A stretch of DNA of 64,000 nt from Atractiella rhizophila (lineage: Eukaryota). Positions within the stretch are counted from its first letter, which is position 1. Every line of letters starts with the position of its first letter. The translations under genes and the position numbers were made by a program. The DNA is taken from the NCBI GenBank assembly GCA_021432655.1, contig MU271363.1, positions 3,757 through 67,756 of the forward strand, given 5' to 3'. Below are positions 1 through 59,347 of the stretch, in pieces. Under the pieces are notes generated by a model, which made no database searches, had not been told where the DNA came from, and saw only the letters and a list, made by a program, of their open reading frames with translations.

Positions 1-1352
1 AGCCTGAGACAGAGGGAGGGAGGGGACACAGATTGGAGAGACGCAAACCAGTGAGGGTGAGTGGGAGAGAGAGCGATTGGAGAGGCGGGTATGTACGAAG
101 CTTTAGTTCTTTGAGGTCAGTCGATAATTGAAGCCCTGGTGACGTCGACGAGGCAGAGTCCGTGACGTCTTCAGCACGGAAGCTTCTGATCCTGCCACCC
201 ATCCTCCGTGTAAAATTTTCAATCTCGTCCTTCTTCCACTTTCTCCAACCTTGCCCTCCAAACATTACGTCATCCAACCTCGTCCAGCCTTCAATCGCAT
301 GCAACACAATCTTCGCCTCCTCGTCATTCCAAATTGCGTCCATGTACACATACGTGACATTCGGCGAGCCAGCAATAACGTCTTCCGCCATCGCAACGCT
401 GATGCCATCGTCAAGCTCTCTCTCAAACGAGAGGGATCTCCACAAATGCCCGGCATTAGGATAAGCTGTCAAACGAGCATGCATCTCCTTCACAGAAACA
501 TCTTCACTCAAATATGGGGCTGAAACAGCCTTCCAAAGCTGACAGACGGCAGAAAGTCGCTCGAAGGAAACGAGATATTCATCTTCGAGATCTTCAATGA
601 GCCTTTCATCTTCATCAAATGAAAGAAACTCGAAGATGAGTGAGAGGATCTCAGGAGGAAGGTGTGCGATACTGCATAAACTAATACTTGTAGGTCGAGT
701 TGTGGAGAGCGAGAGTTGGATGGTTGTCCCCAGACCGGTGGATGGGATGGTTGATTCCTCCCATTCGCTGAGAGGAATGAAACGCTGTTGCTCCTTGGAG
801 TATAGGGCAACGGGTTCAAAGAGGACCTCAGAGCGATTATCTGGAAGGTGAAACGTGCATGTGAAGGGCGGCTCGTCCAGGTCATCCATATCCACGGATA
901 CAAGATATTTAGCATCCCCAAAAGTCACTGCAATACTTTCCTCCTCCAATGCGATGCAAAGAATCACTGTACCGTCGGGTTCTACTTCATTTTCGAGACT
1001 TGCCAGAGAGAAGTAGGATGATTTCGACGGCCCATAATACTCGCTCCAGAAGTCAAGAGTCAAGACAAATGTGATCTGGAGCATGTGAATCGATGGAGGT
1101 AGGCGAGAAAGGAAAGGGGAGAGAACGGAGAGGTGGATCGGAGTGCCATGTTCTAACGTTACTGGGGTGATGAGATGGACCAGTGCCATCGACTCTGTTC
1201 CCTGATCATCCTCCCGTAAAATCAATGTCTCCTTCTCAATTCTTCGCAGAGAAGATACACTAGACTAAAGCCCACGAATTCATGTTAAACGAGGCAAGGG
1301 CAGGGGAAAGATCATATCATGCCTGCAGTACATCAGCGCGTTGTTCAGCCAT
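1..1352 (-). CDS. F-box/LRR-like protein, copy 1 (3' end runs off the window). Exon 1 1323-1352, GC-AG intron 1265-1322, exon 2 from 1264 to <1
   Basis: Manual minus-strand translation aligns with the other copies: LPPEILSLIFEFLSFD...ERLSAVCQLWKAV and IRSFRAEDVTD...DLKELKLRTYPP. Codon phase is the same at 1264 and at 40, so there is no net frameshift. The ORF track lacks it because no stop lies inside the window. Confidence 0.85.
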
Positions 1353-4079
1353 CTCGACGTTCTCGGGGCAATGATCAGACAGCACAATCGTGAGGATGGA
1401 GATCCCGGAACTGTTCGTGGGAGTCGATGGATTAGGCGATCGTTGCAATTAGGACGGATTAGGATGTTGTTGGTGGAGTGGGCGTCCGGACTTTGAAGGC
1501 TTTAGTTCTCCAGCACTTGACTAACAGATAGTGCTACAGGAAGTCCTAAAATGTGTAAAAGAATCCTTTGCAATACTAGTACCTAAATTACACTGAAAAT
1601 CAAACGAGAGCTAGTGCAGAACGCTCTGATATTGATGCTTTGTTTCGTAATGATTGATTGTGAGAGGAAAGGCTAGATGTGGCTGGGACTTAGAGAGGCA
1701 GTTACCTATCTGGATGACAGAGGAGGCAGAGGAACTACTCGCGAGAACATAGATGACACTTGAGTCACTAGCGGGAGACAAGAGGGATGGAGGACGGAGG
1801 CTCAGGAACACGAGGAAGGACCAACCTAGATGTCCACTTGTGGTCCTTTGATGCCACACTGCACACTTTGCCCTCCTCTTTCTCCATCAGCCATTTCATT
1901 TGTTGCCCTCAATGTCATGAAGCAAGCGTCTGTGGAAAAGAGCCATGAAGTGCAAGCCGGAGTGCGATTGAAGGTGGGGTGCGAGAGAGAATAGGATGGC
2001 GGCATGGGAACACGATAAGGCATAGGATGAAGACGGATGGCGAGGAGTGCGAACGGAGGTGCGACAAAGTGTGATGCGTATCTCCGACATCCCATCGTGA
2101 CTATGGACCCGTTATCACTTCTTCCTCTCCCTTTTCGCTTTCGAACGATCAACCTCCACTCCGAGTCCAACTTCCGAGCCACGGGCTTGGTGGAGGCGTG
2201 AGGGCAGGTGGAGTGCGATAGGAGGTGGAGTGGGGACTGGAAAGGGGAGCGGCAGAGGAGTGGACCTAGTGTGCATGGCAGTTAGGATACTCATAGCTGG
2301 AGAGAGGAAGGGAGAAACGAAACACACTGCCAGCAGAAAGAAAACCCTAACAGGCCAGAATGCGAAAAGGCGGGGGGTTGGTGGAAGGCGAAATGAAGGG
2401 TGAACGTTAGCGGAGAGGGATGAGAGGTGGGGCGAGAGGGTATCTGAGGCGAAAGGACATGACGGAGAGTGGAAGAGACGCCGGGACGATCCTTCTCACG
2501 TCTTTCTTCCATCACCCACCACGTTCCCTCTATTCCCCTCTGTCTACCCTTTAGCCATTTAATGTGTCCCCTGTGCTCTGTATTGATATTAAATGACCAG
2601 TATGCGAGGTAAAGGCTTCAGTAGAGAGGAGGTGACTTGTCTAAGCAAACAAGCCGCGATGGCGAAAGTTGGCGGCGCGAGTTGGGGATTGGCGGTGTCG
2701 CAGTCTTCCATCAAATGCCCTACGCTTCGCGGTTGGTTTCTGATGTCTAGTGCGAAGCAAGGCGAAGGATGCGGGCGTGAGAGATGATGTTGGAGAGCGA
2801 GGTGAAACGGGACGGCAACGCCGGGTGAGAGAAAGCATATCATGCTTCTCCGATGTCCATCCTCAATCTTGACCAGCTGTGTCACCTCCGTCCTCTGCTT
2901 TCACGATCCGACGTCCAGCTTTCACGCGCCGTTCGTTGCGGAGTGCACAGAAGTTGCTGGAGGAGCAGAGGAAGACGGATGGCGAGAGTAGCACGGAAGA
3001 GGGATGTTGGAGCAAGAGGGGCAGGTGTACGGGAAGCGTGAAAGGAGGATAGATCGGAGCAGGTGGTGAAACTGGTGCTGGACGGCGCTGTCCTGTCTCC
3101 TTTTTGCATCCCACACTTCCCTCGCACTGCTCTCTCGTTTCCAAGCCCCATCACCGAAGGTGACTCGGAACACTGGGAGGGTAGAGGGGTTTTGTGCTGG
3201 GTCAGCGAAGCAGGAGTCAGAGCAGTGATGAGCGTACAGGGTGAGGGGACGAGGAATCTGATCCTTATGTCATTAAGCACAAATGCAAAAGAGGGAGAGG
3301 GGGAGGGAAGGCACCTCTTCTCTCGCACCTGGCTTTGCTATAAAAGTGTTAGCCCTCCATTGACTATAATTGGATCCATACCTGGCCTCTCTTTCGCCCT
3401 TACTCGCTCGTTCTTGCCCTCCACTGCACATCGCGTGCATCCTTTGTCGTGCTATGCCGTTCTCAGGCGCACTTTCACTGGGCAGCAGATCAGCAATGCT
3501 CGCATCTTCCTTTTCAGTCAGTGTTGTCTGTCGTGGTCTCGTGCTTCGCACTCCCCTTTCCATCTCTGTCACACTTCACCTAACTTTTATGTACCATCTG
3601 TTCACAATGCATCTCAGTTCCCCTCCCTTCTTCGCTCTGGTTGTACTCGTCCATTCATTACTCGCTTACGCCAGCGCTACCAATTACATAAGCCTTCGCG
3701 TGTGGGAACAGTACGTGAGCAAAAAGGAGGACGGTGGAGGATAGCTGAGGTGAAAGAGGAACGTGGAAGAGAGCGGAGCTGGAGATGACGAAGTAGACTG
3801 AAACAGGAGAGGGACACCAAACCAGCCAGAGTGAAGGAGACCGGGGACGGTGAGAGGACGTGAGATCGAGAGAGGCGAAGAGCCTGTGAGAAAGGAGCGA
3901 ACTGAAAGGGTGAAGGGCGGGAACCAGGAACGACGGCCGAGATACAATGGACGGGGAATGAAGGATAGAAGGCGTGGAGAACAGTTGGTCTGTTGGAGAC
4001 TGCACGCAGAGGGCGGAGGAGTAGACAAGAAGACACAGGAAGGTGGCGATCGTAGAAAATCTTTCAACTACGTGACACT

Positions 4080-6025: not shown

Positions 6026-6580
6026 AGAACAAGCCTGGAAGGGCGAAACACAGGCCTGGGATGGATCAAGGAACGGCTGCAAAGCCTTGAAAGCAAAGCA
6101 CATAGTGTTACCAGAGAACAGTAACCTTCTTCATCCCTCTCTGTTTCGCATTTACGCTTATTGCATATGTATTATTTTTCCCCGTCAACCTGGACGCTCG
6201 TCACCGCTGTCCCTCTTGCTGCCCCGTTCCGCCTCAGCACTGCTTGACCTTCCAACCTTCCCGACTTACCTTCGCTGCTGAGGCTACGAAGCGAGAGAGC
6301 AGCGCAAGGCAAGCGCTTGGGGCAAAAGGAGACGGGGAAGCGCCGTCCAGCACCAATCTCGATACTTCCGATCCATCCCGCTATCCCGTAACTCTACCTC
6401 TCTTTCTCCAGCATCCCTTTCTCCGCACCTCAGTGCTCCTCTCGTCATCCATCATCCCTCCGCTCCTCCAGCAACCTCTGCGCCATCCGGAAGGAACGGC
6501 GAGTGCGTGTTGGACGTCGGATCGAAAACAGAGGACAGATGTGGCAGAGCGGGTAGGGGATTGAGCATGGACATCGGAGT

Positions 6581-8554: not shown

Positions 8555-10380
8555 TCACTTCTCCCCACCCTCCCGAACCCACGTCCTTTTACTCCACTCG
8601 CTCACCCCGAACTCTCTCAACGTGCTCCTTGCCTTGCACATCTCGTCCTCAAGCCACCCTCCAAAGAATAGCTCAACCCTCAACTCGCGTCTTCTTGTCA
8701 TCTTCACCTTTTCAGCTCCATCTGCCGTATCCCCCTCCTCGTTCACCCCCCTGTCCCCAAAGAACCAGCAGATGAAATCTGAGAATACGAACCCTGTGAA
8801 TTCCCAGTCCACCACACAGTAACGAACAACTGTGGTATTTATCGCTTTTGCATTTCTGAGAGAGTGGAAGAATTGGGGGGAAACGAGGTTGGAAGTTTCC
8901 TCACCACCGTCGAGGTAGAGTTCGGTGAGATGTTTGAGGTGTGATAGGTCGAGTGGATTGGGTAGGATGGAGGTCTTTCCATCAGGCGAGTAGGGGGCGA
9001 GTGTGATATCGAGATGCCATAGAAGAGGTGGCAGACAGGAGCCTGAGACTGAGGGGGGGAGGGGACACAGGTTGGAGAGAATCAGCCGTGAGAGGGAGAG
9101 TGGGAGGGAGAGCGATGGGAGAGGCGGGTATGCGTCAAGGTGTAGGCGAATGAGGTCAGATGATAATTGAAGGCTTGGTGATGTCGACGAGGCAGAGTCC
9201 TCGACGTCGAAAGCATGGAAGGCTTTGATCCTGTCACCCATCCTCCACATAAAATTCTCGACCTCATCCTTCTTCCACTTTCTCCAACCTTGCCCTCCAA
9301 ACACTACGTCATCCAACCTCGTCCAGCCTTCAATCGCATGCAACACAATCTTCGCCTCCTCGTCATTCCAAATTGCGCCCATGTACACATACGTGACATT
9401 CGGCGAGCGTGCGATGATGTCTTTCACCATCTCAAGGCTAACATCATCGTCCGTTATCCGAAACTCGAGTGTTGTCCACAAATGCCCGGCATTAGGATAA
9501 GCTGTCAAACGAGCATGTAACTCCTTCACAGAAACTTGTTCACTCAAATGTGGGACTGAAACAGCCTTCCAAAGCTGACAGACGTCAGAAAGTCGCTCGA
9601 AGGAAACGAGATATCCAGTACCCAGCCTTTCATATTTATCGAATGAAAGAAACTCGAAGATGAGTGAGAGGATCTCAGGAGGAAGTTGTGTGATACTGCA
9701 TAAACTAATACCTGTAGGTCGAGTTGTGGAGAGGGAGAGTTGGATGGTTGTCCCCAGACCGGTGGATGGGATGGTTGATTCCTCCCATTCGCTGCGAGGA
9801 ATGAAACGCCGTTGCTTCTTGGAGTATAGGGCAACAGGTTCAAAGAGGACCTGAGAGCGATTATCTGGAAGATGAAAAGTGCATGTGAAGGGCTTCCGAG
9901 ACAGGCGCTCCAATTCCACGGATGCACGACGTTTATTATCCCCAAAAGCTACCGTAATACTTTCCTCCTCCAATGCAATGCAAAGAATCATTGCACCGTC
10001 GGGTTCGACTTCATTTTCGAGACCTTCCACAGAGAAGTAGGACGATTTCGACGGCCCATAAGAGTTGCTCCAGAATTCCAGAGGCAAGACAAATGTGATC
10101 CGGAGCATGTGAGTTGATGCAGGTAGGCGAGAAAGGAAAGAGGGAAGAATGGATAGATGTAGCAGACCGCCATGTCGTAGGGTTACTGGGGTGATGAGAT
10201 GGACCTGTGCGATTGACTCTGTTCCCCGATCATCCTCCTGTGAAATCAATGTTCTTCTTTTTTTCATTCTGGGAGATAACATGCCGGACTAAAGACCACG
10301 AATTCATGTTAAACGGACAAGAGAAGGGGAAAGAGATATCATGCCTGCAGCGCATCAGTGCATTGTCCAACTTGAGCCAT
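8555..10380 (-). CDS. F-box/LRR-like protein, copy 2. Exon 2 8555-10288, intron 10289-10344, exon 1 10345-10380 (further in-frame ATG at 10425)
   Basis: 575-aa ORF with the F-box motif ITQLPPEILSLIFEFL...LSDVCQLWKAV, followed by LxxLxL repeats (LSRLILSNL, LWHLDITL, LKHLTELYLDGG). Confidence 0.9.
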
Positions 10381-12996
10381 CTCGCCGTTCTCCACACAAT
10401 GATCAGGCTGATCAGATATTACCATCGTGCGTGAAGATAGAGATCGCATATCCGCTCGTAGGAGTCGAAGGATTAGGCAACTGGTTGCACTTACAATGGT
10501 GTTGGGTGGAAGTCGGCGTCCGGACGTTGAAGGGTTTGGTTCTCTCGCACTTAACTACCAGATAGGAATCCTAAATATGCAAAAGAACTGAAATCCTTTG
10601 CAATACTAGTACTTAAATTACACTGCAATTCAAACCAGAGCTAGGCAGAACGCCTGATATTCATGCTTCGTCCATATCTGATAGTGAGAGCAAGGCTAGA
10701 TAGGGCTGGGACATTATGGAGGGCAGTTAGCAATCAGGATGACAGAGGAGGCAGACATGGCCACTTGCGAGAAGTTATATGACACTTGAGTCAGTAGCGG
10801 GAGATTAAAGGGATGGATGGCAGAGGCTTAGGAGCACGAGAGGGACCGACCTAGATGTCCACTTGTGGCCTGATCCATTACTGCCCACATTTCCCCTCCT
10901 CTTTGTCCATCAGCCATCTCTTTTTTGACATCGATGTCACGAAGCAGGCGTAGGGTGAAGGTGATCTATGTAATGCGACCTGGCATGCAACGGAGGATAG
11001 GAGAATGAGGTGGGAGAGAGAGTAGGAGAGCGGGATGGAACATGGGCGAGGAGGGATCGAACGGGAGTGCGAACAGAAGTTGGAAAGAAAATGTGAGGCG
11101 TCACTGTGACATCCCACGTTGATTATCGGCTTCGTGACACTTCTTCCTTCCCCTTTCGCTCTCCGACGTCCAACATTCAGCCCACATTCGACTTCCGTAC
11201 GCTCCTCAGGCTTGGTGGAGGCGTGAGGGACGGTGGAGTGCGAGAGGAGGTGGATTGAGACTAGCAGAGAGCGGAGCGCAACGGATCTAGTGCGCGTGTT
11301 ATAAGGACACTTGTATCAGGGAGAGGGGAAGGGAGAAAGAAAATACACTCCGGCAGAGAGGAAAGCCCAACGCGGCGAGAATGCAAAAAGGCGGACGGGT
11401 TGGTGGAAATGAACGGTGAACATAGGCGGAGAGGGATGCGAAGTGGAGTGAGAGGGTAAGTGAGGCAAAATGAGTTGGCGAATGTCAAAAAAGGAGCTGG
11501 AGAGACGCCGGGACGGTCACTCTCTCTTCCTTCTGCGATCACCAACCGAAGTTGTTCCTCTGTCCAAGTTTTTCGCCATTTGACGTGTCTATCGTGCTCT
11601 GGGTTTGCCTTAGATGACCATTATGCTGGGATTGGAGGGGGAATAGGCAATAGTAAAGCGTAAGAGAATGGGCTAGGCAGCGAAAGACGGCGGCACGAGC
11701 GGGATGGGCGAACGGCAGGGACTTTACTCTGAACCCCTTCCGACCCCATCTGAGCCACAGTCCACCTCCTTCGCCACCACGCGTCCCAACTACGCTTCGT
11801 GGTTGACTTCCGATATCTAGGGTGAAGCAATTTGCTTACAGTCGAGGGACGGCTGAAGCGGGCGTTGGCATGTTAGAGAGCGAGTGAAACGAGAGGGCCA
11901 GTGTGGGTGAGAGAAAGCATATTACACCCCGCCGACTGGGCTCAATCCCCGACCCGCTGTGTGAGCTCCATCCTCTACTTTCACGATCCGACCTCCAACT
12001 CGACCTGGCGTTCGTTTCAGAAGACAGAAACATTGCTGGAGGAGCTGAGGATGATGGATGTCGGCGGGGCGGGGGTGTGGGGAGAGAGGGATGATTGACC
12101 GAGAGAGGCGAGAGTCGTGGCGAAGATTATGGGAAGTGGGATAGGTCGGATGGAGGTACTGAGACTGGTGCAGCGGGGCGGCGCTTCCTGCTTCCCTCTA
12201 ACTGCCCTCTCGCTTCGTAGCCTCGGCAGCGAAGGTAAGTCAGGAGGCTAGGAGGGTCGAGCAGTGCTGAGGTGGGATGGGATTGCAGGGGGAGAAGGGC
12301 AATGGCTGGCAGGGTGACGGGGGAGGAAGCTAATACCTATGTCAGTAAACGCCAATGCAAAGAGGGAGAGGGAGCGGGACGGCCTCTTCTCTCGTACCTC
12401 TCTGCCCCTCCATCTCTGCCACACTTAGCCTTCCATTATGCCCCATTCTGTTGGCAATCATCTCATTCCCCCCCTTCTTTGCGCTGATTGTACTTGTGCG
12501 TTCATTGCTTGAGCACACCCTCGCTACCATCTCCTCCCTGCGCCACCCCACCCTGTCAAGCCTGCTCTGTCACCAGCTGTCCAAACATTTCGATTCCTAC
12601 CGACTCCATTACCTTAGTCTAGGAATAGGAAGGGTCCATCAGCAAAAGAGGACGGTGTGGGATAGCTGTGGTGAAAGAATACTGAGGAGGAGAGAGGAGC
12701 CGGAGGGTATGACGAAGGAGGCTGAGACAGGAGAGTGACGCCAGAACCAGCAACAGTGAAGCAGACCAGCGAGACGACAGAGATGTGCGGATGTGAGCAT
12801 GGGACTGCATGAAAGAAACGGCTAGCTCAGAGCGAGAAAGAGGGAAGGGCGGCGGACTCGGAGATCGAGAGCCGATGGAGGACGTTCGGAGACGGTGTAG
12901 TAGTGACTGCTTGCGGAGGCGGAGGAGATGAAAGGAAAGGAACTGCCAGCCAAGTGGCAGCGTTAGTTTCGGCCGAAAATCCTTTCACTTTCACAG

Positions 12997-14673: not shown

Positions 14674-14989
14674 ACCTTGCACCGACGTGCATGCAACTCT
14701 CGGAACCATTACGGAAATGAAGGAGCAAAAAGATGGATTTGTGCTACCACAAAGGGTTCAAAGAATGGTACCATTGTTATATCACATCTTCGATCTTCTA
14801 CTACAGCCTTCTCTTCTTTTAAGTTATCCTTCCTTCAATGCACGAGTCGTCGTCAACCGTAAGAACAACTCAAGCAAGACTCAAAGGTGAATCAGCATCT
14901 TTACATTGTGGCACTGTTTGACAGAACTTAATAATGTCTTTGGCGCTTTTAAGGGGAATTGGCAGAAGTTGTTTGCATCAGAGAAGACA

Positions 14990-43399: not shown

Positions 43400-45228
43400 T
43401 CACTCCTCCCCACCCTCCCTAACCCATATGTATTCATTCTCGTTGCTCACACCAAACTCTTTCAGTGTGCTCCTAGCCTTGCATATCTCTTCCTCAAGCC
43501 ACGCTCCAAAGAATAGCTGAACCCTCAACCAGCGTCCTCTTGTCTTCACCTTTTCAGCTCCATCCACCATCTCTTCCTCCTCCTTCACCCCCCCGTCCCC
43601 AAAGAACCAGCAGATGAAATCTGAGAATACGAACCCTGTGAATTCCCAGTCCACCATACAGTACCGAACATCTATGATGGTTATTGCTTTTGCATTTGTG
43701 AGGGTGTGGAAGAACTGGGGGGAAACGAGGTTGGTAGTTTCCTCACCACCGTCGAGGTAGAGTTCGGTGAGATGTTGGAGATGTGAAAGATCGAGTGGAC
43801 TGGGTAGGATGGAGGTCGTTCCAGCAGGCGAGTAGGGGGCGAGTGTGATATCGAGATTTGCTAGAAGAGGCGGCAGACAGGAGCCTGAGACGGAGGGAGG
43901 GAGGGGACACAGATTGGAGAGGCGCAAATCTGTGAGGGAGAGTGGGAGGGAGAGCGATTGGAGAGGCGGGTATGCATGAAGCTCTAGTTCTTCGAGGTCC
44001 GATGATAATTGAAGGCCTGGTGATGTCGACAAGGCAGAGTCCTCCACATCGTAAGCACGAAAGATTCTGATCCTGTCACCCATCCTCCGCACAAAATTCT
44101 CAACCTCATCCTTCTTCCACTTTCTCAAACTTCGCCCTCCAAAGGCTACAGAATCCAACTTCACCAAGCCTTTAATCGCATGCAACACAATCGCCGCCTC
44201 CTCTTCATTCCAAATTGCGTCCATCTCCACCCCCGTAACATTCGGCGAGCCTGCAATGACGTCTTTCACCATCTCAACGCTGATGTCATCGTCAAGCCCA
44301 CTCACAAACCAGAATTTTGTCCACAAACGCCCGGCATTAGGATAAGCTGTCAAACGAGCATGCCTCTCCTTCATAGATATAACATCATCCAAATATTGGA
44401 CTGAAACAGCCTTCCAGAGCTGACAGACAGCAGAAAGTCGCTCGAAGTCAACGAGATATGCAGTACCTTGAATGGAGAGCTCCTCATATTTATGGGATGA
44501 AAGAAACTCGAAGATGAGTGAGAGGATCTCAGGAGGAAGGTGCATGATACTGCATGGACTAATACCTGTAGGTTGAGTTGTGGAGAGGGAGAGTTGGATG
44601 GTTGTCCCCAGACCGGTGGATGGGATGGTTGATTCCTCCCATTCGCTGAGAGGAATGAAACGCAGTTGCTCCTTGGAGTATAGGGCAACGGGTTCAAAGA
44701 GGACCTGAGAGCGATTATCAGGAAGATGAAACGTGCATGTGAAGGGCTTCAGGTCCAGGTCATCCATATCCACGTATGCAAGATATTTGGCATCCCCAAA
44801 AGTCACCGCAATACTTTCCTCCCCCAACGCCATGCAAAGAATCCCTGTACCCTCAGGTTCGACTTCATTTTCGAGACCTGCCAGAGAGAAGTAGGATGAT
44901 TTCGATGGCCCATAAATCTCGCTCCAGAATTCAAGAGGCAAGACAAATGTGATCCGGAGCATGTGAGTTGATGCAGGTAGGCGAGAAAGGAAAGAGGGAA
45001 GAATGGATAGATGTAGCAGACTGCCATGTCGTAGGGTTACTGCGGTGATGAGATGGACCTGTGCGATTGACTCTGTTCCATGATCATTCTCCTGTGAAGT
45101 CAATGTTCTTCTTTTTTTCATTCTGGGAGATAACATGCTGGACTAAAGACCACGAATTCACGTTAAACGGACAAAGAAGGGAAAAGAGCGTCTCATGCCT
45201 GCAGCGCATCCGCCAGTTGTCCAACCAT
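43400..45228 (-). CDS. F-box/LRR-like protein, copy 7. Intron 45143-45198, exon 1 45199-45228 (further in-frame ATG at 45258)
   Basis: 578-aa ORF with the F-box IMHLPPEILSLIFEFL...LSAVCQLWKAV and LRR-like repeats. Confidence 0.9.
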
Positions 45229-45381
45229 GTCGACGTTCTCCGCGCAATGATCAGACATCACGATCGTGAGGATGGAGATCGCAAAACTGTTCGTGGGAGC
45301 CGGTGGATTAGGCGACCGTTGCAATTAAGACAGATTATGATGGTGTTCGGTGGAAGAAAGTTTGCGTCCGGACGTTGAAGG

Positions 45382-50367: not shown

Positions 50368-50577
50368 TCAGTGTCGCTCCTCTCCACCCTCCCGAATCCA
50401 TATCCAGTAATCCCCCTCGATAACCCCAAACTCTCTCAACATGCTTCTGGCTGTACATATCGCTTCCTCAAGCCACCCTCCAAAGAATAGCTGAACCCTC
50501 AAATGGCGTCCTCTTGTGCTCTTCACCTTTGCAGCCCCATCCACCGTATCCACCTCCTCCTTCACCGCCCTGTCCCC
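50368..50577 (-). pseudogene. F-box/LRR-like gene, 3' fragment (copy 8; last ~70 codons)
   Basis: GDRAVKEEVDTVDGAAKVKSTRGRHLRVQLFFGGWLEEAICTARSMLREFGVIEGDYWIWIREGGEERH* is closest to copy 3. It is fused at ~50578 to an unrelated spacer segment also seen near 5520 and 25720. Confidence 0.85.
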
Positions 50578-50979
50578 CTCTTCAATCCTCAGTACCACCC
50601 ACATAGGAGAGAACGAATACGGCAGTGTAGCAACACCGACGTTTACACTCCCTCCTCGTCCGCAGCCGTTTTCTATCCCTCCATCACCCTTACCAGAGCC
50701 CAAATCAACAAGTACAGCTGCAGACAGACTCCCCTCGATTCTTGAATTGCTCAGTCCAGTGGTGGTGCGTTGAATAGTAGGTTCTCTGTTTTTTCGCTGC
50801 GATAACGAATGAAGGTGGGTTTGACTTCAGATATAAGAACGAGGAGGAAGCGAAGGAGGAAACTGTGAGGAAGGATGGGGATTGTGTAGGAAGTTGCGGT
50901 CAATTCCCACTGGAAATCTCGACAGCATCTTCTTCCTTCTCCATGGTTGCTAAAATGTGGAGGGAAGTCAAGCCGCATC

Positions 50980-51686: not shown

Positions 51687-51954
51687 TGTTGGATTATGAC
51701 CTTTCACAGGGCTTTCCCAGCTGGTGGTTGTTGGGCTCTTCACTTCGTTCTAGTTATGTCTTACATCTCATATCCTCCCACACTTAGCCAACGCCATCCG
51801 CTCATATATACCTCCTCTTTGTTCACTGGATTCCCCATCGTCTTCCACCATCGTGAACGATTGGGGAATCCAGGTCTGTCTCCTCCTACATAGTGTTTTG
51901 CATTGCTGATCGTCTTCCACCATCGTGAACGATTGGGGAATCCAGATTCTATCA
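51687..51954 (+). repeat. 5' LTR, 268 bp
   Basis: Direct repeat of 56125-56392; followed immediately by the PBS. Confidence 0.95.
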
Positions 51955-52986
51955 GGTTATGAGCCCAAACCCTCGAATCTGAGGCATCTCTGTTTCAGGT
52001 GGCAAAATCGATTTTTTTTCTTGATCGGACGACGTATCTTCTGGAGTCCGGAGCGACTATAAATCTCGTACATCTCATCTATTCGTTACATGTCACGTAG
52101 GACACGACTCAGGAGCAACCAAGATCACCTTCAACCTCCTCCATCTCTTCCGGCGTCTTGGAGTCCTTTCAAGGTCTCAACATCGAAGAACCAAGCATTC
52201 CCACGCCATCTACGGCTGATCCGCTCAGCTCACCACCTTCTTTCTTCACACGTGACAACTCTTTCTATCTTCCCATCGAAATTGACGACGAAGTGCCCAT
52301 CATGTCTCCAGACAATATCAAGATTTCGGAGAAACTCACTCGGGCGAATTGGTCGTCATGGTCAGAAGAGGCGAAAGAATGCTTGAAGACGATGCTTTGG
52401 GGATATATTGCGGAGAATGCCAAAGGGGAAGTCCTAATGGCGCGACCGGTTAGGGAGCTTTACGAGGTGGCTGGACCGTCTCAGGCTATTCTTTTCAGCA
52501 AAGAGAATTCCGCCTGGCTGAAAGGGGATTGGGCTGCCAGTGCGTTCTTAAAGGCTTCGGTTGACGATGCTTTGAAAGAAGTTACTTCGCGAAGTCCTCT
52601 ACGTCCCTGCCATTCGGACCCCTCTCCTGTCTGTTTCTCAGATCGTTAAAGACGGGGATCATGAGGTTTTGTTTACTGCAAAAGGTCTCTACGTCCGTGT
52701 TTCTGTTACTGGTGCTACCGTTGCCACCGCTTCTCTCCGCCATGTTGTCTATTGGATTGACGGTGATCCTATCCCTGCCCCTTCGTTCAGCTCTCCCCCA
52801 AGTGCGATTGCGAACTCAGCTGTGTCTTTGGACGTTTGGCACCGCCGCCTTGGTCATCCTGGAAAGGACAGGCTAGAGAGACTTTGAAGGAGGATCTGGT
52901 GACTGCTTTTGATGTTGTTGGCCCCAAAAAGGTTGATCTTAAGTTAGAGGATTGTGAGGCTTGTATCATGGGCAAGCTGACGAGGG

Positions 52987-53044
52987 GGTCCTTCCCTCAG
53001 AAGTCTGGTCCTTCCCTCAGAAGTCTGGTCCTTCCCTCAGAAGT
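52987..53044 (+). repeat. 20-bp tandem repeat x2.9 (GGTCCTTCCCTCAGAAGTCT) inside the Copia integrase
   Basis: Read directly; the 40 extra bases shift the frame between the Zn-binding motif and the catalytic core. Confidence 0.9.
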
Positions 53045-56000
53045 TTTCTGCTTTAGAGTATCTTCCTGGCGAGTGTATTTCTACTGATCTCTGTGGTCCT
53101 ATGGAAGTCCCATCTTTGGGCGGTTCTCTGTACATGGTGACGCACGTTGATTATGGTTCACGCACTTTTCACGTTGAGTTCTACTCTGGCAAGCTGGCAT
53201 CTGAGATCATTTCTTCCTTTAAGTCGTTCAAATCGTGGATCGAACTCAACTCTGGTCGCCGCATCATTCGCTGGAAGGTTGATGGAGGTGGAGAATTCAT
53301 GAACGGGCTGCTCAGTCATTGGATGTTGGATGCAGGGATCAACAAGACTCCTACCACACCCTAATGCTCTCCTGAGAATGGGGTTGCGGAACGTGCTCAT
53401 CGCACGATTGTCACCTCTGCAGTATGTATGCTTCACCACGCAGGTCTTGACAAGAAATTCTGGTCCTACGCTTGCGCATATGCAGCTCATTTGCACAATC
53501 GCCTTCCTTCCAAACCGCTCGATGGTCGTACTCCTCTGGAGGTCTCCACAGGTCGCAAGCCTCCGGTTGATCACTGTCGCGTTTTCGGTTGCACAGCTTA
53601 TGCGAAGATACTACATCAGTCTGGAAAGTTCTCAGGTCGTGCCCACGAAGGTGTATATCTGGGCCCCGACGTTCAACACAAGTCTCACTTTATTTTCGTT
53701 CCTCAGTTGCAGCGTGTTTTGCGTGCCCGTTATGTTCTATTCCGTGAAGATCACTTTGCAGGACGGGTACCTGGCGACACTCTGCTTTCCTCAAATTTTG
53801 TTCCTAACTTCGATCTCTCTCATACATTTCCGCAATCTCTTCCGGAAGAGCCCTCCTTCCCTGATTCGACTGCCCCGGTTGCAACGGACATATCGCCACC
53901 GCCTATTCTCGTACCCCCTACAGGTGGTTCTGGTTTGGTGGGAGCAGTTCTACACCATTGACGGGTGGCTTGTATGCTCATGGGGATGGTTACTCGGAAG
54001 GGGTGTTCAGTGCATGATGGTGGATGTAAGACCCACCCAAACGATGAGTTCTAGCTCTCCTGTTCATGTGCGGCATGCTGATACTTCCTCTCTCGTTGCT
54101 CCTGTGCCAGTCCACACTTCGAGAAATGGCCGTACCATCAGGCCTAATCCACGGTATTTCAACGATAATTATGTTGTCGATGCTATCCCGTCGACATCAC
54201 TGGCCAACTCTGCGGTTGAGGTTGTTGACCTACCCTCTGGTATTGCTTATTTCGCCTCTGCTTTGGCCACTCCTGCGGCTCCATCCTCGTCGTATGCGTT
54301 TAGTCTGCAACACCATCTTGACTCTGGATGGACTGATATTCCTGATGATCTTGCTTACCTTCTCTCCTCCAATGCCGCACCATCTTCTCCTCCTAGATCT
54401 TGGAAGGAGGCCATGTTTGGCCCGCACAAGTAACACTTGCGTGCTCAGATGGAGAAGGAATGGACCCATGGCATGGTCAGCCAAGGGGTTGTTGGAGAAC
54501 TTATGCCGAAGCCTGATGGGGGTCAAGGCCATAGGTTGGCAATGGGTCTTCACCATTAAGGATCATTTACGAGGGACTGGAGAAGAGTTTAAGGCCTGTC
54601 TTTGTGTACATGGCGATCAGCAGCCTTCTTCACCAACGAATGCCTCCAATTACTCCCCTGTTACCAACTGGAACACCACTCGGGCGGCTTAGCCTATGCT
54701 GCCAGGGAGAACCTTCATGGTCACCAAGCTGATTATTCACAGGCCTTCCTTAACTCCCCCCTTGACGATCTCACGGTTTTCGTCAAGCAGCCTCCGGGGT
54801 TCGTCGTTGAAGGCCGGGAGGACTGGGTTTATCTGCTCAAGAAAGGTGTCTATGGACTGGCCCAGGCTTCTCGTTTATGGTATAAGACACTGAAGACGGA
54901 CCTACTTTCCAAAGGCTGGCAGGAAGGTCTGATTCCTGTGTCTTCATCAAGGTCATTGATGGGGTTTCTTATATCCTAGTTGTCTATGTTGACGACACAC
55001 TCACGGTTGGACCGGTCGAATCTGCAGTCATTGCCTTGCAGCGGGATCTTGCTTCCACTTTTCACATGCGCCTACTTGGTCCGGCAAAGAACTTCTTGGG
55101 GACGCTGATTGAACGGGATTGGTCTAAAGGCACATTGTCTATCTCACAATCCTCATTCATCGTCGACACCATTCGTCATTTTGGCTATGACCAGTTGCCT
55201 TCCGCCCGCACCCCTGTGGATATCAATGAACGCCTGGAGCCTTTCGATGGCCCGTAGTCTGAGGAGGATCTTCGCTCGAAACCATCCTGGTCCTTTAACT
55301 CCGTTATCGGTTGCTTAGGTTGGCTTGCCACTGCCACACGCCCCGTCATTTCCTTTGCGCTCTCAAATATTTCTCGATTTCAATCGAATCCTGGTCCCAC
55401 CCACTTTCGTGCTGCTGACCGCATTCTATGCTATCTCAAAGGCACTCCTACTCATGGCATAGTCTACGACCGCCCCAATCGACAACCTCTATCCTTCTAC
55501 TCCGACGTCTCCTTCGCAACACTCCTTCCCAACCTTCGGTCTCAGACGGGTGTTGTTGCCATGTTAGCAGGTGGGCCAATCTCTTGGGTGTCTCAAGCTC
55601 AGAAACTTGTGGCTGGTTCATCGGGGGAGGCGGAATACAGCGCTGCTCATGTTGCGGTTAAACAAGCCATTTGGACATGTGGTTTCCATCAAGAATTAGG
55701 CGCTCTCAACCTGGTCCACAATGTGGATCCTTCTGCCCCTGCTCCGCCGACTACTATCTTTGAAGATAACCAGGCGACCATTGCAATCTCTCAAGACGGC
55801 TCTCACCAAGCGCAATCGAAGCACTTTCTGCTACACTACTACATCATTCAGGATCGGGTCAATCATCATGAAGTTGTATTGCGTTACATTAGTACACGTT
55901 CCCAGATTGCGGACTGTCTCACCAAGGCCGTCTCCTACGTTCCTCTGCAAAAGGCTATGGACGCTCTGGGAATTCGCATGATAGGGTCGAAGTTTCTGTG

Positions 56001-56124
56001 GTCTGGAGGATCTTGATTTGTCTTATTCCATTTGTTTACCCTTGCATTATTTTGGTACTATTCTTTTGGTTTCCTTTCGTTGTCATGTCTTGCATATGAG
56101 CTCTCACCGTCGTTGCGGTGGGAG

Positions 56125-56392
56125 TGTTGGATTATGACCTTTCACAGGGCTTTCCCAGCTGGTGGTTGTTGGGCTCTTCACTTCGTTCTAGTTATGTCTT
56201 AAATCTCATATCCTCCCACACTTAGCCAACGCCGTCCGCTCATATATACCTCCTCTTTGTTCACTGGATTCCCCATCGTCTTCCACCATCGTGAACGATT
56301 GGGGAATCCAGGTCTGTCTCCTCCTACATAGTGTTTTGCATTGCTGATCATCTTCCACCATCGTGAACGATTGGGGAATCCAGATTCTATCA
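56125..56392 (+). repeat. 3' LTR, 268 bp
   Basis: Direct repeat of 51687-51954; preceded by purine-rich GCGGTGGGAG. Confidence 0.95.
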
Positions 56393-56659
56393 GTTCTGAC
56401 GCTTCTTAGATTTACTCGATGAATACGGACGGGGAAGCAATTGATTTGTTCGCTAGGGGCCTCTTAGACTGCTGAGCCGCCCATCACACCTCGCTTCAAG
56501 TGCAGAGAGGCAATTCGCACTTTCATGGTAATACAGTCTCGCCACCTCTCTTCTCTTCTGCCTTGATATCACGAAGTTGAAACGTGGCGATGATGCGCTC
56601 TAGAATGGCAAGGGACAGGATGGGGAGGGAGATCAACTGTCGGATACGTCAATGACTGA
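56393..56659 (+). pseudogene. Polyol dehydrogenase pseudogene, terminal exons downstream of the Copia insertion
   Basis: The sequence resumes with GTTCTGACGCTTCTTAG, as in the uninterrupted copies at ~7460 and ~27745. Contains AIDLFARG...PITPRFK. Confidence 0.8.
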
Positions 56660-57461: not shown

Positions 57462-59347
57462 TCACCACTCCCCACTCTCCCGAACCCACGCATCTTCATC
57501 CGCCTCACTCACACCAAACTCTCTCAACGTGCTCCTAGCTTTGCATATCTCTTCCTCAAGCCACCCTCCAAAGAATAGCTGAACACGCAACTCGTGTCCT
57601 CTTGTCGTCTTCATATTTTCAGCTTCATCCACCACATCCCCCTCCTCCTTCACCCTCCTGTCCCCAAAGAACCAGTAGATGAAGTCTGAGAATACGAACC
57701 CAGTGAATTCCCAGTCCACCACACAGTACCAAACATCTATGAAATTTATCTCTTCGGCATTTCTGAGGGTGTGGAAGAGCTGGCTGGAAACGAGGTTTGA
57801 AGTTTCCTCACCACCATCGAGGTAGAGTCTGGTGAGATATTTGAGGTGTGACAAGTCGAGTGGAGTTGTTAGGATGGAGATCTTTCCATCAGGCCAGTAT
57901 GAGGTGAGCTCAATCTCAAGATGTTCAAGGAGAGGCGGCAGACAGGTGCCTGAGACAGAAGGAGGCAGGGGACACAGGTTGGAGAGAATCAGCCGTATAA
58001 GGGAGAGTGGGAGAGAGAGCGATGGGAGAGGTGGGTATGTGTGAAGCACTAGACGTTTGAGGTTAGGCGACAATTGAAGGCCTGGCGATGTTGACGAAGC
58101 AGAGTCCTCCACGTTTTCAGCACGGAACTTGGTGATCCTATCGTCCATCCTCCACATAAATTTCTCGACCTCATCCTTCTTCCACTTTCTCAAACTTCGC
58201 CCTCCAAAGGCTACAGAATCCAACTTCACCAAGCCTTTAATCGCACGCAAAACAATCTTTGCCTCCTCTTTATTCCAAAATGCATCCATTTCCACCTCCA
58301 TAACATTCGGCGAGCCAGCGATGACGTCTTTCGCCATCTTGACGCTGATGTCATTGTCAAACCTTCTTGCAAACTGGAGGGACGTCCACAAGCGCCCAGC
58401 ATTAGGATAAGCTTTCAAACGAGCATGCCTCTCCTTCATAGAAGCAAACAAATCATCCAAATATGCGACTGAAACAGCCTTCCAGACCTGACAGACAGCA
58501 GAAAGTCGCTGGAAGGAAACAAGATATTCTTTATCAAGACCTTTGATGGGACTTTTGTATTTATCGAATGATAAGAACTCGAAGATGAGAGAGAGGATCT
58601 CGATGGGTAGCTGTGCGATAGGGCGTGGACTAATACCTGGAGTTCGAGTCGGACAGCATGACATTTGGATGGTTGTCCCCAGACCTGTGGATGGGATGCT
58701 TGATTCCTCCCATTCACTGAGAGGAACGAAACACTCTTCCTCCTTGTAGTATACAGCAATAGGTTCGAAGAGGGCCTCAGAGTGATTATCTGGAAGATGA
58801 AAAATGTATGTGAAGGGCTTCATGTCCAGGTGGTCCAAATCCACTGATGCATGATGTTTGGTATCCCTGAAAGTTACCTTAATACTTTCTTCCTCCAAAG
58901 TGATGCAAAGATTGACTCTGCCGTCAGTCTCGACTGCATTTTCTAGATCTTCCACAGAGAAGTAGGATGATTTCGACGGCCCATATTCGAACCTCCAGAA
59001 TCGAATAGGTAAGACAAATGTGATCCGGAGCTTTCGAATTGATGAAGGTAGGTGAGCAAGAAAAGAGGGAAGAATGGAGAGATGGATCGGACTGCCATGT
59101 TGTAATGTTCCTGGGGTGAGGAGATGGAGCAGTGCGATAGACTCTTTCCCCTGACCGTCCTTGCATAAAATCGATGATTTTCTTTTTTTCACTCTGGGAG
59201 ATAACACGATGTACTAATGCCCACGAACACACATTAAACAAGACAAGAGCGGAACAGATAAGGTCATGCCTGCATCGCATCTGTGCATTGTTCAACTCGA
59301 ACCACCTCAACATTCTCTGGGGAATGATCAGGCCGATCAGGCATCAT
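57462..59347 (-). CDS. F-box/LRR-like protein, copy 9. Intron 59214-59269, exon 1 59270-59347
   Basis: 581-aa ORF that the track starts at GTG; exon 1 supplies ATG. F-box IAQLPIEILSLIFEFL...LSAVCQVWKAV. Confidence 0.9.

What the first reader, a model, noticed from the sequence alone, without database searches (positions are those of the whole stretch)
1..59347. Tandem array of F-box/LRR genes hypervariable at predicted exposed LRR positions: candidate fungal non-self recognition/degradation system
Seen: nine paralogs, seven with open frames, keep near-invariant scaffolds (LPSLSLP, SNLCPLPPSVSGSCLPPLL, LDGGEETSNL) but change the residues between the hydrophobic core positions of each repeat. 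One strand reads DLIRLHLDAY / NFNSLELHTY / NLKSLLLSTY / ELKILTLHTP / DLEELELHAY / NLKRLVLHTY / DLKELKLRTY. Another reads IKAFHAFD / IRIFRALD / IRFFSAYN / IRIFRAYD / ITKFRAEN / IRSFRAED. A third reads VTYVYMG / VTYVWMD / VTVVWID / VEAVWMD / VTGVEMD / VMEVEMD. Known: xxLxLxx exposed positions form the ligand surface of LRR solenoids and are under positive selection in plant NLRs, and F-box proteins are SCF substrate adaptors whose rapid expansion in nematodes and plants has been attributed to pathogen defence. Inference: this locus is a repertoire of variable SCF adaptors that target foreign or fast-evolving proteins (viral, transposon, competitor or host). A toxin-antidote or meiotic-drive role is an alternative.
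Basis: partly seen in the sequence, partly recalled or inferred. Interest (0 to 1): 0.9.

Follow-up and report, generated by a model that had tools for sequence, protein, structure and literature searches.

The report
Fast-diversifying fungal F-box/LRR gene array
A root-associated fungus carries a tandem array of lineage-specific F-box/leucine-rich-repeat genes that stay intact while the predicted ligand-binding residues change faster than neutral DNA, as expected for a repertoire of variable ubiquitin-ligase adaptors whose targets are still unknown.

Summary
The window holds nine minus-strand copies of one gene. Six are full-length and open, one is open but cut by the window edge, one is a frameshifted 98% partial duplicate, and one is a 67-aa remnant. 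They sit in ~7-kb tandem units. All named relatives come from Atractiella rhizophila.

Each protein has an orphan N-terminal beta-rich domain, an F-box, and a ~10-repeat LRR solenoid. The best structural match is FBXL2 in its SKP1 complex (Z 15.9).

The genes are maintained. Coding indels are few and all in frame, whereas the spacers are full of indels. Neutral simulation keeps under 1% of frames open.

Replacement is concentrated at 40 a-priori exposed LRR strand positions: dN 0.565 against 0.168 protein-wide, about twice the synonymous and spacer divergence. My own M1a/M2a tests are significant, also with segment-specific trees and with synonymous-rate variation. A per-site test with free synonymous rates is weak, because synonymous rates are also raised at those codons.

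Not tested or only weakly tested: Skp1 binding, substrates, clean transcription evidence. The immune or non-self role remains an inference. I rate this a new variant of a known kind (rapidly evolving F-box adaptor families), of moderate to high interest.

The parts
2..1376 (-). Copy c1. Exon 1 lies at ~1323-1376. Exon 2 is open but cut by the window start, so the C-terminal ~160 aa are missing.
   Evidence: The annotated protein P0026 maps at 100%.
8555..10449 (-). Copy c2, the reference copy. Exon 2 is 8555-10288 (575 aa from the internal ATG at 10282), the GC..AG intron ~10289-10344, and exon 1 10345-10449.
9713..10219 (-). c2 N-terminal beta-rich domain, aa 22-190. It is an orphan domain with ten predicted strands.
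   Evidence: In the full-length model pLDDT is mostly 57-86 over these residues, with one 10-residue block (121-130) at 48. Modelled alone, pLDDT is only 48. Matches to this part of the profile were seen only among the stronger hits; the one such hit that was looked up (P0113) is A. rhizophila.
9548..9694 (-). c2 F-box, aa 197-245 (LPPEILSLIFEFL ... VCQLW).
   Evidence: Pfam F-box-like: 17.8 bits for c2 and 23 of 34 family members at E<=0.01. L200, P201, E203 and W238 are invariant in 34 paralogs. The FBXL2 alignment starts at residue 196.
8648..9499 (-). c2 LRR solenoid, aa 262-545. About 10 repeats, with LxxLxL strands starting at aa 269, 296, 323, 352, 377, 397, 421, 452, 481 and 531. Hypervariable positions are p+2 and p+4 of repeats 1-6.
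   Evidence: DSSP strands, fold matches, selection tests.
15506..17427 (-). Copy c3, intact (585-aa exon 2 plus exon 1).
28791..30626 (-). Copy c4, intact. It equals the annotated protein P0012.
33734..35612 (-). Copy c5. The frame is open. It has no internal ATG but exon 1 has one. It carries a 10-aa internal duplication.
35930..37613 (-). Copy c6, a recent partial tandem duplicate of c5. It is 98.1% identical over 1902 nt (35930-37801 against 33899-35800), lacks the 3' ~160 nt of the coding sequence, and is frameshifted.
   Evidence: The annotated 810-aa model P0001 fuses c6 and c5.
43400..45258 (-). Copy c7, intact.
   Evidence: P0059 equals its C-terminal 274 aa.
50377..50577 (-). Copy c8, a remnant of the last 67 aa only. 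It ends exactly where a dispersed spacer repeat begins.
57462..59347 (-). Copy c9, intact through exon 1 (59270-59347). It equals the annotated protein P0011.
51687..56393 (+). LTR retrotransposon inserted in the array. Its 269-bp direct repeats are 98.9% identical (51687-51955 and 56125-56393). It contains copia-type RT-like frames.
   Evidence: tblastn 54928-55974, 30% identity to the other RT fragment.
31970..33067 (+). Ty1/copia reverse-transcriptase fragment between c4 and c5.
   Evidence: Pfam RVT_2, E 6.8e-17.

Best explanation
What the locus is: a birth-and-death tandem array of a gene family found only in Atractiella rhizophila among the named hits. The family encodes intracellular F-box/LRR proteins.

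Structure (shown): each protein has a family-specific N-terminal beta-rich domain, an F-box, and a ~10-repeat LRR solenoid.

Function (inferred by analogy with FBXL proteins): the F-box docks on Skp1-Cul1, and the concave LRR face, perhaps together with loops of the N-terminal domain, holds a substrate that is then ubiquitylated.

How the array evolves (shown):
- It grows and shrinks by unequal crossing-over of ~7-kb units.
- Copies exchange segments.
- The reading frames are kept open by selection.
- Amino-acid replacement piles up at the outward-facing strand positions (p+2, p+4) of LRR repeats 1-6, at about twice the neutral rate.

Meaning (inferred): each paralog presents a different binding surface, so the family is a repertoire of adaptors tracking diverse or fast-changing targets. 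The targets are most likely non-self or selfish proteins such as viral, transposon or competitor proteins, but they are unidentified.
For: Architecture:
- AlphaFold2 model: pLDDT 71 overall, mostly 82-96 over residues 251-440 with one block at 73.
- VIA-align top hit is FBXL2 in the GGTase3-FBXL2-SKP1 entry 6o60_C (Z 15.9, rmsd 4.1, 287 residues aligned, model 196-567). FBXL17 scores Z 15.6, Skp2 13.0 and TIR1 12.9. Foldseek also returns LRR and F-box-LRR chains.
- Pfam F-box-like matches 23 of 34 members, best E 5.8e-9. L200, P201, E203 and W238 are invariant.

Maintained genes:
- Coding indels number 3-6 per pair and are all in frame. The ~1.85-kb spacers have 41-55 indels per pair, 30-48 of them not multiples of 3.
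- Neutral simulation keeps 0.05-0.85% of frames open.
- Exon 1 and its intron are conserved in 8 of 8 copies that reach that far.

Diversification at 40 a-priori exposed sites:
- dN is 0.565 against 0.047 for the core and 0.168 overall.
- Beta is 2.85-3.0 times the gene-wide synonymous rate, LRT 109.6.
- Spacer JC distances are only 0.20-0.36 and gene-wide dS is 0.27.
- M1a/M2a LRT is 179.4 with omega2 of 9.0 on 6.3% of sites. Of 24 sites with NEB>0.9, 13 are among the 40 exposed sites (hypergeometric 1.7e-10).
- With each segment's own tree, the F-box/LRR1-6 segment gives LRT 114.7, with 9 of 12 sites exposed.
- With gamma synonymous-rate variation the LRT is still 32.8, p 7.5e-8.
- In 28 paralogs outside the window, the same sites show 2.63 bits of entropy against 1.48 overall.

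Array dynamics:
- ~7-kb units and the c5/c6 98.1% duplicate.
- Segment trees reject each other in 5 of 6 cross-tests, AU p 1.6e-4 to 0.035; the sixth gives p 0.11.

Lineage restriction:
- 52 of 54 hits are named A. rhizophila and the other 2 carry no name.
- 10 of 10 weaker hits that were looked up are the same species.

Intracellular location: 53 of 54 annotated paralogs lack a hydrophobic N-terminus. This is a crude hydropathy check.
Against: - Skp1 binding and substrates are untested.
- All four window copies scanned alone fall under Pfam's F-box cut-off (15.6-22.5 bits against 24.3).
- No Pfam LRR family matches any of 34 members at E<=0.01.
- The best PDB sequence hit, the FBXL5 F-box, has E 0.23.
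- The F-box region as a whole shows omega 0.95, not different from 1. Whole-gene omega is high, at 0.77 in M0.
- Synonymous rate is also raised at the exposed codons (alpha 2.33, LRT 15.3). Against that local baseline omega is 1.22, LRT 0.84, not significant.
- A FUBAR-like grid finds only 9 sites at P>0.9, of which 2 are exposed.
- 286 of 506 differing codon pairs at exposed sites differ at two or more bases. Multi-nucleotide changes could therefore inflate site-model tests.
- Only 7 sequences were available. The codon models are my own code, with relative branch lengths fixed.
- 'Exposed' was assigned from the LRR register and DSSP, not from model coordinates.
- The C-terminal segment (repeats 7-10) gives only LRT 7.7.
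Confidence: 0.55

Rival explanations
1. Endogenous regulatory adaptors. The family is an ordinary expanded F-box family that tunes turnover of the fungus's own proteins in development, signalling or symbiosis, as proposed for the large F-box expansions of mushroom-forming fungi. Fast change would then reflect sub- and neo-functionalisation after tandem duplication, not recognition of foreign molecules.
For: Passages read in the preprint 10.1101/349894 say that Agaricomycetes have 67-1,199 F-box genes, mostly from recent tandem duplications, many of them developmentally regulated. PMC10282164 (passages) calls F-box proteins fast-evolving. The architecture and intracellular location found here fit this reading equally well.
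Against: Replacement at about twice the neutral rate, focused on two ladders of surface residues, is more typical of arms-race surfaces than of housekeeping adaptors. No relative was found outside one species among the named hits.
Confidence: 0.22
2. Host-directed effectors. The proteins are delivered into plant root cells and mimic plant F-box/LRR proteins to hijack the host SCF, as described for the Hessian fly SSGP-71 family and Ralstonia GALA/RipG. The LRR face would then co-evolve with host targets or escape host receptors.
For: The review PMC4617103 (passages) describes both families as F-box plus LRR effectors that interact with host Skp proteins. The organism name attached to the relatives is that of a root-associated fungus (titles and abstracts). 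Short contigs matching the family occur in root and soil metatranscriptome libraries.
Against: 53 of 54 annotated paralogs have hydrophilic or basic N-termini with no signal-peptide-like stretch, by a crude hydropathy check. No delivery signal is known for this fungus.
Confidence: 0.08
3. Relaxed constraint or a decaying family. The copies are drifting duplicates with no maintained function, and the variable positions are simply unconstrained.
For: Whole-gene omega is 0.77 and F-box omega 0.95. Omega at exposed sites is not above 1 against the local synonymous rate. Two of nine copies are broken. Transcription evidence is weak.
Against: Six full-length frames stay open where simulation leaves under 1% open. 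All coding indels are in frame, against 30-48 frame-breaking indels per pair in the neighbouring spacers. Core LRR positions have omega 0.26 and 36 sites are under purifying selection at P>0.9. Exposed sites change faster than spacer DNA, which drift alone cannot produce.
Confidence: 0.05
4. Selfish or mobile element cargo, such as a toxin-antidote pair, a meiotic driver or a transposon-borne gene. The ~7-kb unit would spread by its own activity.
For: Members lie on many contigs, often several per contig, judged by equal contig lengths. Retrotransposon insertions lie inside the array.
Against: Of 16 spacer ORFs scanned, 15 have no Pfam match. The one hit is a weak RVT_2 inside the separate LTR element. 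No second conserved protein gene that could serve as a partner was seen in the unit. The units are head-to-tail with neutral-level spacer divergence, as expected from unequal crossing-over. The substitution spectrum is ordinary, with 59% transitions and no RIP-like bias. I did not search for terminal repeats of the unit.
Confidence: 0.04

Closest known systems
FBXL-type F-box/LRR substrate adaptors of SCF ligases (FBXL2, FBXL17, Skp2, TIR1/COI1)
   Same: An F-box followed by an LRR solenoid. The best structural matches are FBXL2 (Z 15.9, covering both F-box and LRR), FBXL17 (15.6), Skp2 (13.0) and TIR1 (12.9). LPxE...W F-box residues are invariant.
   Different: There is a ~190-aa orphan beta-rich domain in front of the F-box. 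There is no sequence-level LRR family match. Sequence identity to the solved chains is 8-16%. The later repeats have proline-rich, non-helical backs. Skp1 binding is not tested.
Rapidly evolving F-box families of Caenorhabditis and plants
   Same: [quoted passage not shown] PMC8120010 (passages) cites Thomas 2006 for positive selection among C. elegans paralogs in the substrate-recognition domain.
   Different: In those families the recognition domains are mostly FTH or FBA, and the F-box is reported to be under purifying selection. Here the recognition domain is an LRR, the F-box region as a whole has omega 0.95, and the family is confined to one fungal species among the named hits.
F-box expansions of mushroom-forming fungi (Agaricomycetes)
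   Same: Basidiomycete F-box families expanded mostly by recent tandem duplication and described as fast-evolving (10.1101/349894 and PMC10282164, passages).
   Different: The relatives here are named for a fungus that the title and abstract of PMC13347111 and my own recall place in Pucciniomycotina, not Agaricomycetes. In the passages I read, those papers interpret the expansions as developmental and do not map selection onto LRR surfaces. My two literature searches listed no paper on positive selection in fungal F-box/LRR genes.
Hypervariable-repeat recognition repertoires: plant NLR LRRs and Podospora HNWD/NLR WD40 repeats
   Same: Tandem or clustered paralogs, exchange of segments between copies, and positive selection on surface positions of a repeat solenoid or propeller. 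The Podospora work was seen as listings and abstracts only (PMC1805685, PMC2873952). The plant NLR xxLxLxx pattern is recalled.
   Different: No NACHT, NB-ARC or death/HET effector domain is present. The output module here is an F-box, so recognition would lead to degradation rather than cell death. That fungal NLRs generally lack LRRs is recalled, not checked here.
Secreted F-box/LRR effectors (Hessian fly SSGP-71, Ralstonia GALA/RipG)
   Same: Large diversified families combining an F-box with LRRs (PMC4617103, passages).
   Different: Those families carry secretion signals and act in the host. 53 of 54 paralogs here show no signal-peptide-like N-terminus.

Membership tests
F-box proteins (SCF substrate adaptors) | Sequence match to an F-box profile (Pfam PF12937/PF00646) | tested here: met
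   23 of 34 family members match PF12937 at E<=0.01, best 5.8e-9, and 5 of 34 match PF00646. The four window copies scanned alone score 15.6-22.5 bits, under the 24.3 cut-off. The feature is therefore met for the family and only sub-threshold for these copies.
F-box proteins (SCF substrate adaptors) | Helical F-box fold placed directly before the substrate-binding domain | tested here: met
   The model has helices at 202-212 and 228-245. The alignment to FBXL2 (6o60_C) starts at model residue 196 and chain residue 15. pLDDT is below 50 for residues 187-201 and 210-225.
F-box proteins (SCF substrate adaptors) | Binding to Skp1 | not testable with these tools
   No fungal Skp1 sequence was available from the window or from any search result, so no co-fold was run.
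Leucine-rich repeat proteins | Tandem LxxLxLxx(N/C) units, each giving one strand of a curved solenoid | tested here: met
   Ten units were found. In all ten the DSSP strand begins at p+2. There are 188 PDB representatives with Z>=8, and all 50 listed rows are repeat-solenoid proteins, most of them LRR.
Leucine-rich repeat proteins | Match to a Pfam LRR family | tested here: not met
   0 of 34 members match any LRR family at E<=0.01. None of the 4 window copies matches at E<=1.
Positively selected recognition LRRs (plant-NLR-like pattern) | Excess replacement at the solvent-exposed x positions of xxLxLxx | tested here: met
   dN is 0.565 at 40 exposed sites against 0.047 for the core. 13 of 24 M2a sites are exposed. 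The dual-rate LRT is 32.8. Caveats: omega is 1.22 and not significant against the local synonymous rate, and only 2 exposed sites are recovered in the free-alpha grid.
Fungal NLR / HET non-self recognition proteins | NACHT or NB-ARC nucleotide-binding domain, or a HET domain | tested here: not met
   No such Pfam family appears in 34 members at E<=0.01.
Secreted F-box/LRR effectors (SSGP-71, GALA) | N-terminal secretion signal | tested here: not met
   The maximum 12-residue hydropathy within the first ~40 residues exceeds 2.1 in only 1 of 54 annotated paralogs. This is a crude test, and unconventional secretion is not excluded.

The most novel reading that the evidence does not exclude
The array is part of a fungal intracellular 'degradative immunity' repertoire. 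In this reading, dozens of F-box adaptors each use two variable surfaces, the concave LRR face and loops of a family-specific N-terminal beta domain, to seize viral, transposon or competitor proteins and send them to the proteasome. New specificities would arise by tandem duplication, segment exchange among paralogs and selection. That would be an LRR-based recognition repertoire in a fungus with an F-box, rather than an NLR cell-death module, as its output.
Probability: 0.25. Interest if true: 0.8.

Novelty: new variant of a known kind. Interest (0 to 1): 0.58.

Why it matters
Rapidly diversifying F-box adaptor families are documented in nematodes and plants. F-box expansions are known in mushroom-forming fungi, where they have been read as developmental.

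This locus gives a compact, testable fungal case. The fast-changing residues form two ladders on the predicted ligand face of an LRR, and the genes are clearly maintained.

If the targets prove to be foreign or selfish proteins, this would show a ubiquitin-ligase-based recognition repertoire in fungi alongside the NLR-type systems. If the targets are the fungus's own proteins or plant proteins, it would instead inform how a root endophyte rewires proteolysis or manipulates its host.

The orphan N-terminal domain, with its own selected loops, is a further unknown.

Tried and rejected
- Whole genome. None is held for this window. Codon analyses are therefore limited to the 7 window copies, and the other paralogs were used only as proteins.
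- RIP-like hypermutation as the driver of divergence. Rejected: singleton changes are 59% transitions in both spacer (262 of 446) and coding sequence (205 of 350). GC-to-AT against AT-to-GC transitions are 156:106 and 115:90.
- c6 as an old divergent paralog. Rejected: the 73% identities are an ungapped-register artefact, and blastn gives 98.1% identity to c5.
- N-terminal domain identity. No Pfam match at E<=1 apart from a chance-level UBM hit at E 0.2 in c4. ESM Atlas feature scores are 0.75, below the useful range. The PDB profile search gives nothing. The domain modelled alone has pLDDT 48. Its best VIA match is Z 3.4, with 0 chains at Z>=5. Galectin-type beta-sandwiches recur at Z 2.7-3.0 over residues ~24-184, which is a lead only.
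- Second protein gene in the spacer. Stop-to-stop ORFs are short, and 15 of 16 ORFs have no Pfam hit.
- Transcription. The run search returned only small shares, 0.05-0.10. When laid, two soil metatranscriptome contigs (250 nt and 179 nt) match c2 at 8950-9204 with 1 mismatch each, and a root metatranscriptome gives 76 contigs at 90-99+% identity. These are contigs from RNA libraries that may contain DNA and paralogs of other strains. I do not count them as proof of expression, and uncovered parts say nothing.
- Recombination check by longest identical runs. It is dominated by the c5/c6 pair. In 6 further pairs the longest run exceeds the maximum of 200 shuffles by at least 20 nt. I relied on the AU tests instead.
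- Literature. One search was rejected for an over-long term and not repeated. Searches listed no paper on this family or on positive selection in fungal F-box/LRR genes. Supplements were not consulted.
- One search was an empty script, run by mistake.

Full report
**What is in the window**

ORF listing and tblastn show nine minus-strand copies of one gene.
- c1 2-1252, cut by the window start
- c2 8558-10282
- c3 15515-17263
- c4 28794-30470
- c5 33740-35470
- c6 35930-37471, read in three frames
- c7 43403-45136
- c8 50377-50577, the last 67 aa only
- c9 57468-59207

Translations have no internal stop in c1, c2, c3, c4, c5, c7 and c9.

The repeated unit is larger than the gene. A 7.5-kb query around c2 aligns to the other units over gene and spacer at 67-83% identity, with one inverted spacer block next to c7.

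c6 is a 98.1% identical, 1902-nt partial duplicate of c5.

A conserved upstream exon (M..SDQPDHC.ENVEM..VGQ..DALQ) followed by a ~56-nt GC..AG intron precedes all eight copies that reach that far. This explains why c5 and c9 lack the internal ATG, and it matches the annotated model P0011.

The array is interrupted by a copia RT fragment and by a young LTR element whose 269-bp LTRs are 98.9% identical. There is a 25-N assembly gap at 40966-40990.

**Whose genes these are**

The word-indexed search returned 54 proteins at 37-78% identity. Of these, 52 are named 'hypothetical protein ... Atractiella rhizophila' and 2 carry no name.

A profile search of 1.84 billion representatives gave 104 hits at E<=1e-3, 72 at E<=1e-10 and 43 at E<=1e-30. 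Ten of the weaker hits were looked up, and all ten are the same species. Hits at E 2.4e-8 and weaker mostly cover only the F-box part of the profile.

Matches to the N-terminal ~190 aa of the profile occur only among the stronger hits. The one such hit that was looked up is A. rhizophila.

Five annotated proteins map into the window. Two further members on a contig of the same length (P0004, P0014) do not map into it. The array therefore probably continues beyond the window. This is inferred from equal contig lengths.

**Architecture**

The AlphaFold2 model of c2, built from a 34-sequence alignment, has mean pLDDT 71, and mostly 82-96 for residues 251-440 with one block at 73. It shows three parts:
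- a beta-rich region at residues 24-185
- helices at 202-245
- an alpha/beta solenoid at 271-540

Foldseek returns LRR proteins, including FBXL2, FBXL17, COI1, TIR1, D3 and Dia2, at weak E-values of 2e-4 to 1e-2.

The alignment against 48,161 PDB representatives is clearer. The top hit is FBXL2 from the GGTase3-FBXL2-SKP1 entry (Z 15.9, rmsd 4.1, 287 residues aligned, model 196-567). Then come RanGAP (15.8), FBXL17 (15.6), Skp2 (13.0) and TIR1 (12.9).

At sequence level, Pfam F-box-like matches 23 of 34 members at E<=0.01, with best E 5.8e-9. The four window copies scanned alone are sub-threshold, and no LRR family matches. L200, P201, E203 and W238 are invariant in 34 paralogs.

The N-terminal domain remains unidentified.

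Of 54 annotated paralogs, 53 have no signal-peptide-like N-terminus.

**Are the copies maintained?**

Pairwise dS is 0.16-0.41, dN is 0.13-0.21 and omega is 0.49-0.82 over 21 pairs. M0 omega is 0.77. That is high, but the copies are not decaying:
- Homologous 2-kb upstream spacers differ by JC 0.20-0.36 (10 pairs) and carry 41-55 indels per pair, 30-48 of them frame-breaking.
- The coding sequence has 3-6 indels per pair, all in frame.
- Simulated neutral change of 0.08-0.17 substitutions per site leaves 0.05-0.85% of frames open.
- Core LRR positions have omega 0.26.

**Where the variation lies**

Before looking at variability I fixed the LRR register from the conserved LxxLxL pattern and the DSSP strands. 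The ten repeats start at p = 269, 296, 323, 352, 377, 397, 421, 452, 481 and 531. I called p+1, p+2, p+4 and p+6 'exposed' (40 sites) and p, p+3 and p+5 'core'.

Nei-Gojobori sums:

| Class | dN |
|---|---|
| Exposed | 0.565 |
| Core | 0.047 |
| Rest of LRR | 0.110 |
| Whole protein | 0.168 |

None of 5000 random 40-site samples reaches the exposed value.

In 28 paralogs outside the window, the same sites have mean entropy 2.63 bits, against 1.48 overall and 0.61 for the core (0 of 5000). Of the 40 most variable columns, 17 are exposed sites. Other variable columns cluster in N-terminal loops at 36-39, 68-75, 106, 124-129, 156 and 175.

**Is it positive selection?**

I wrote a Goldman-Yang-type likelihood. 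Relative branch lengths came from IQ-TREE.

Class fits for the exposed sites give alpha 2.33 and beta 2.85.
- Beta is far above the gene-wide synonymous rate (LRT 109.6).
- The synonymous rate is itself raised there (LRT 15.3).
- Against that local baseline omega is 1.22 (LRT 0.84, not significant).

M1a against M2a on the whole gene gives LRT 179.4, with omega2 of 9.0 on 6.3% of sites. Of 24 sites with NEB>0.9, 13 belong to the 40 exposed sites (hypergeometric 1.7e-10), and 11 of those 13 are p+2 or p+4 of repeats 1-6.

Segment trees reject each other in 5 of 6 cross-tests (AU p 1.6e-4 to 0.035; the sixth gives 0.11). The copies have therefore exchanged segments.

Repeating the test per segment, each with its own tree:

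| Segment | LRT | Sites with NEB>0.9 |
|---|---|---|
| N-terminal domain | 38.8 | 6 |
| F-box to LRR6 | 114.7 | 12, of which 9 exposed |
| LRR7 to end | 7.7 | 2 |

Adding gamma-distributed synonymous rates still gives LRT 32.8 (p 7.5e-8) for the F-box/LRR1-6 segment and 11.5 for the N-terminal segment.

A FUBAR-like grid with free per-site alpha is much weaker. It finds 9 sites at P>0.9, of which 2 are exposed and 5 are in the N-terminal region.

The codons themselves show saturated, often two- or three-base differences at the variable positions. There, 286 of 506 differing codon pairs are multi-base, against 841 of 3638 elsewhere. These codons sit next to core codons that are identical in all copies.

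My reading is that diversifying selection is the best explanation, because these residues change about twice as fast as both synonymous sites and spacer DNA. The formal tests still need repeating on the whole family, with established software and multi-nucleotide-aware models.

**How it most likely works**

Shown:
- the domain order
- tandem unit structure
- recent duplication (c5/c6) and loss (c8)
- segment exchange between copies
- maintained frames
- focused replacement on the strand positions that face outward in LRR solenoids

Inferred:
- The F-box recruits Skp1-Cul1.
- The LRR face, and possibly the N-terminal loops, bind the substrate.
- The family is a repertoire tracking diverse or fast-changing targets.

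What those targets are is open. An ordinary substitution spectrum argues against RIP-like hypermutation. No transposon gene belongs to the unit.

**Expression**

Only environmental libraries held matching words. Short contigs from two soil and one root metatranscriptome match family members, two of them with a single mismatch to c2. This is suggestive at most.

**Comparison with what is known**

- Tandem F-box expansions with positive selection in the recognition domain are described for C. elegans (PMC8120010, passages).
- Large, tandemly expanded, fast-evolving F-box families are described for Agaricomycetes and interpreted as developmental (10.1101/349894 and PMC10282164, passages).
- F-box/LRR effector families exist in the Hessian fly and Ralstonia (PMC4617103, passages).
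- Hypervariable-repeat non-self recognition genes are known in Podospora (listings and abstracts).

The present family fits the first kind. It differs in three ways: it has an orphan N-terminal domain with its own selected loops, an LRR is the selected surface, and it is restricted to one fungal species among the named hits. My searches listed no paper describing this family. Supplements were not consulted.

**Verdict**

The architecture and the diversifying pattern are well supported. SCF function and the non-self role are inferred. I rate it a new variant of a known kind, with interest 0.58.

Noticed in passing
window 14282-14418 (+): One contig of a root metatranscriptome library skips 14283-14338 and 14371-14417. 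Both skipped pieces have GT..AG ends on the + strand, so they look like two small introns of a spliced plus-strand transcript in the spacer between c2 and c3. The spliced sequence has no long open frame.
   Followed up: partly
window 51687-56393: A ~4.7-kb LTR retrotransposon with 269-bp direct repeats that are 98.9% identical. It holds copia-type RT-like frames at 54066-54692 and 54928-55974. It appears to be a young insertion between the c8 remnant and c9.
   Followed up: partly
window 4085-8040, 24155-28300, 50577-51390: Spacer blocks share 89-97% identity, which is more than the flanking genes share (c2 against c4 is ~81% identical, dS 0.30). The c8 remnant ends exactly at the border of one such block. 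This could be a dispersed repeat or recent block exchange between units, and recombination there may have deleted most of c8.
   Followed up: partly
window 45382-47458: About 2.1 kb of the spacer upstream of c7 is inverted relative to the other units (74% identity on the opposite strand).
   Followed up: no
window 10289-10344 and the equivalent place in the other copies: The intron after exon 1 begins with GC rather than GT (GCATGA...) in all eight copies. The annotated model for c9 uses it. It looks like a conserved GC-AG intron.
   Followed up: partly
window 2001-4000, 10001-14000, 18001-20000, 38001-40000, 60001-62000: A block upstream of the genes that keep the standard spacer (c1, c2, c3, c6, c9) is GC-richer (0.52-0.56) with positive GC skew (+0.08 to +0.17). 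On the genes' own strand it is therefore C-rich. It contains no convincing ORF.
   Followed up: no
exposed LRR codons of all copies (c2 aa 270-537): The synonymous rate estimate is 2.3 times the gene average exactly at the hypervariable codons, while interleaved core codons are often identical in all copies even at third positions. More than half of the differing codon pairs there differ at two or three bases. The cause is open: repeated hits under selection, multi-nucleotide mutation, or a model artefact.
   Followed up: partly
c2 aa 24-184 (window ~9731-10213): The low-confidence model of the N-terminal domain alone repeatedly aligns to galectin-type beta-sandwiches (Z 2.7-3.0, 90-105 residues). 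This is far below significance, so it is only a lead to a lectin-like fold.
   Followed up: partly
proteins P0051, P0023, P0001 (relatives, not all in the window): Some annotated family members look like fused gene models. A 562-aa 'RhoGAP-domain' protein carries the family's N-terminal domain at residues 281-528. A 973-aa protein has four matched stretches. The 810-aa P0001 joins c6 and c5.
   Followed up: no
window 40966-40990: A run of 25 N, an assembly gap, lies inside the spacer upstream of c6.
   Followed up: no
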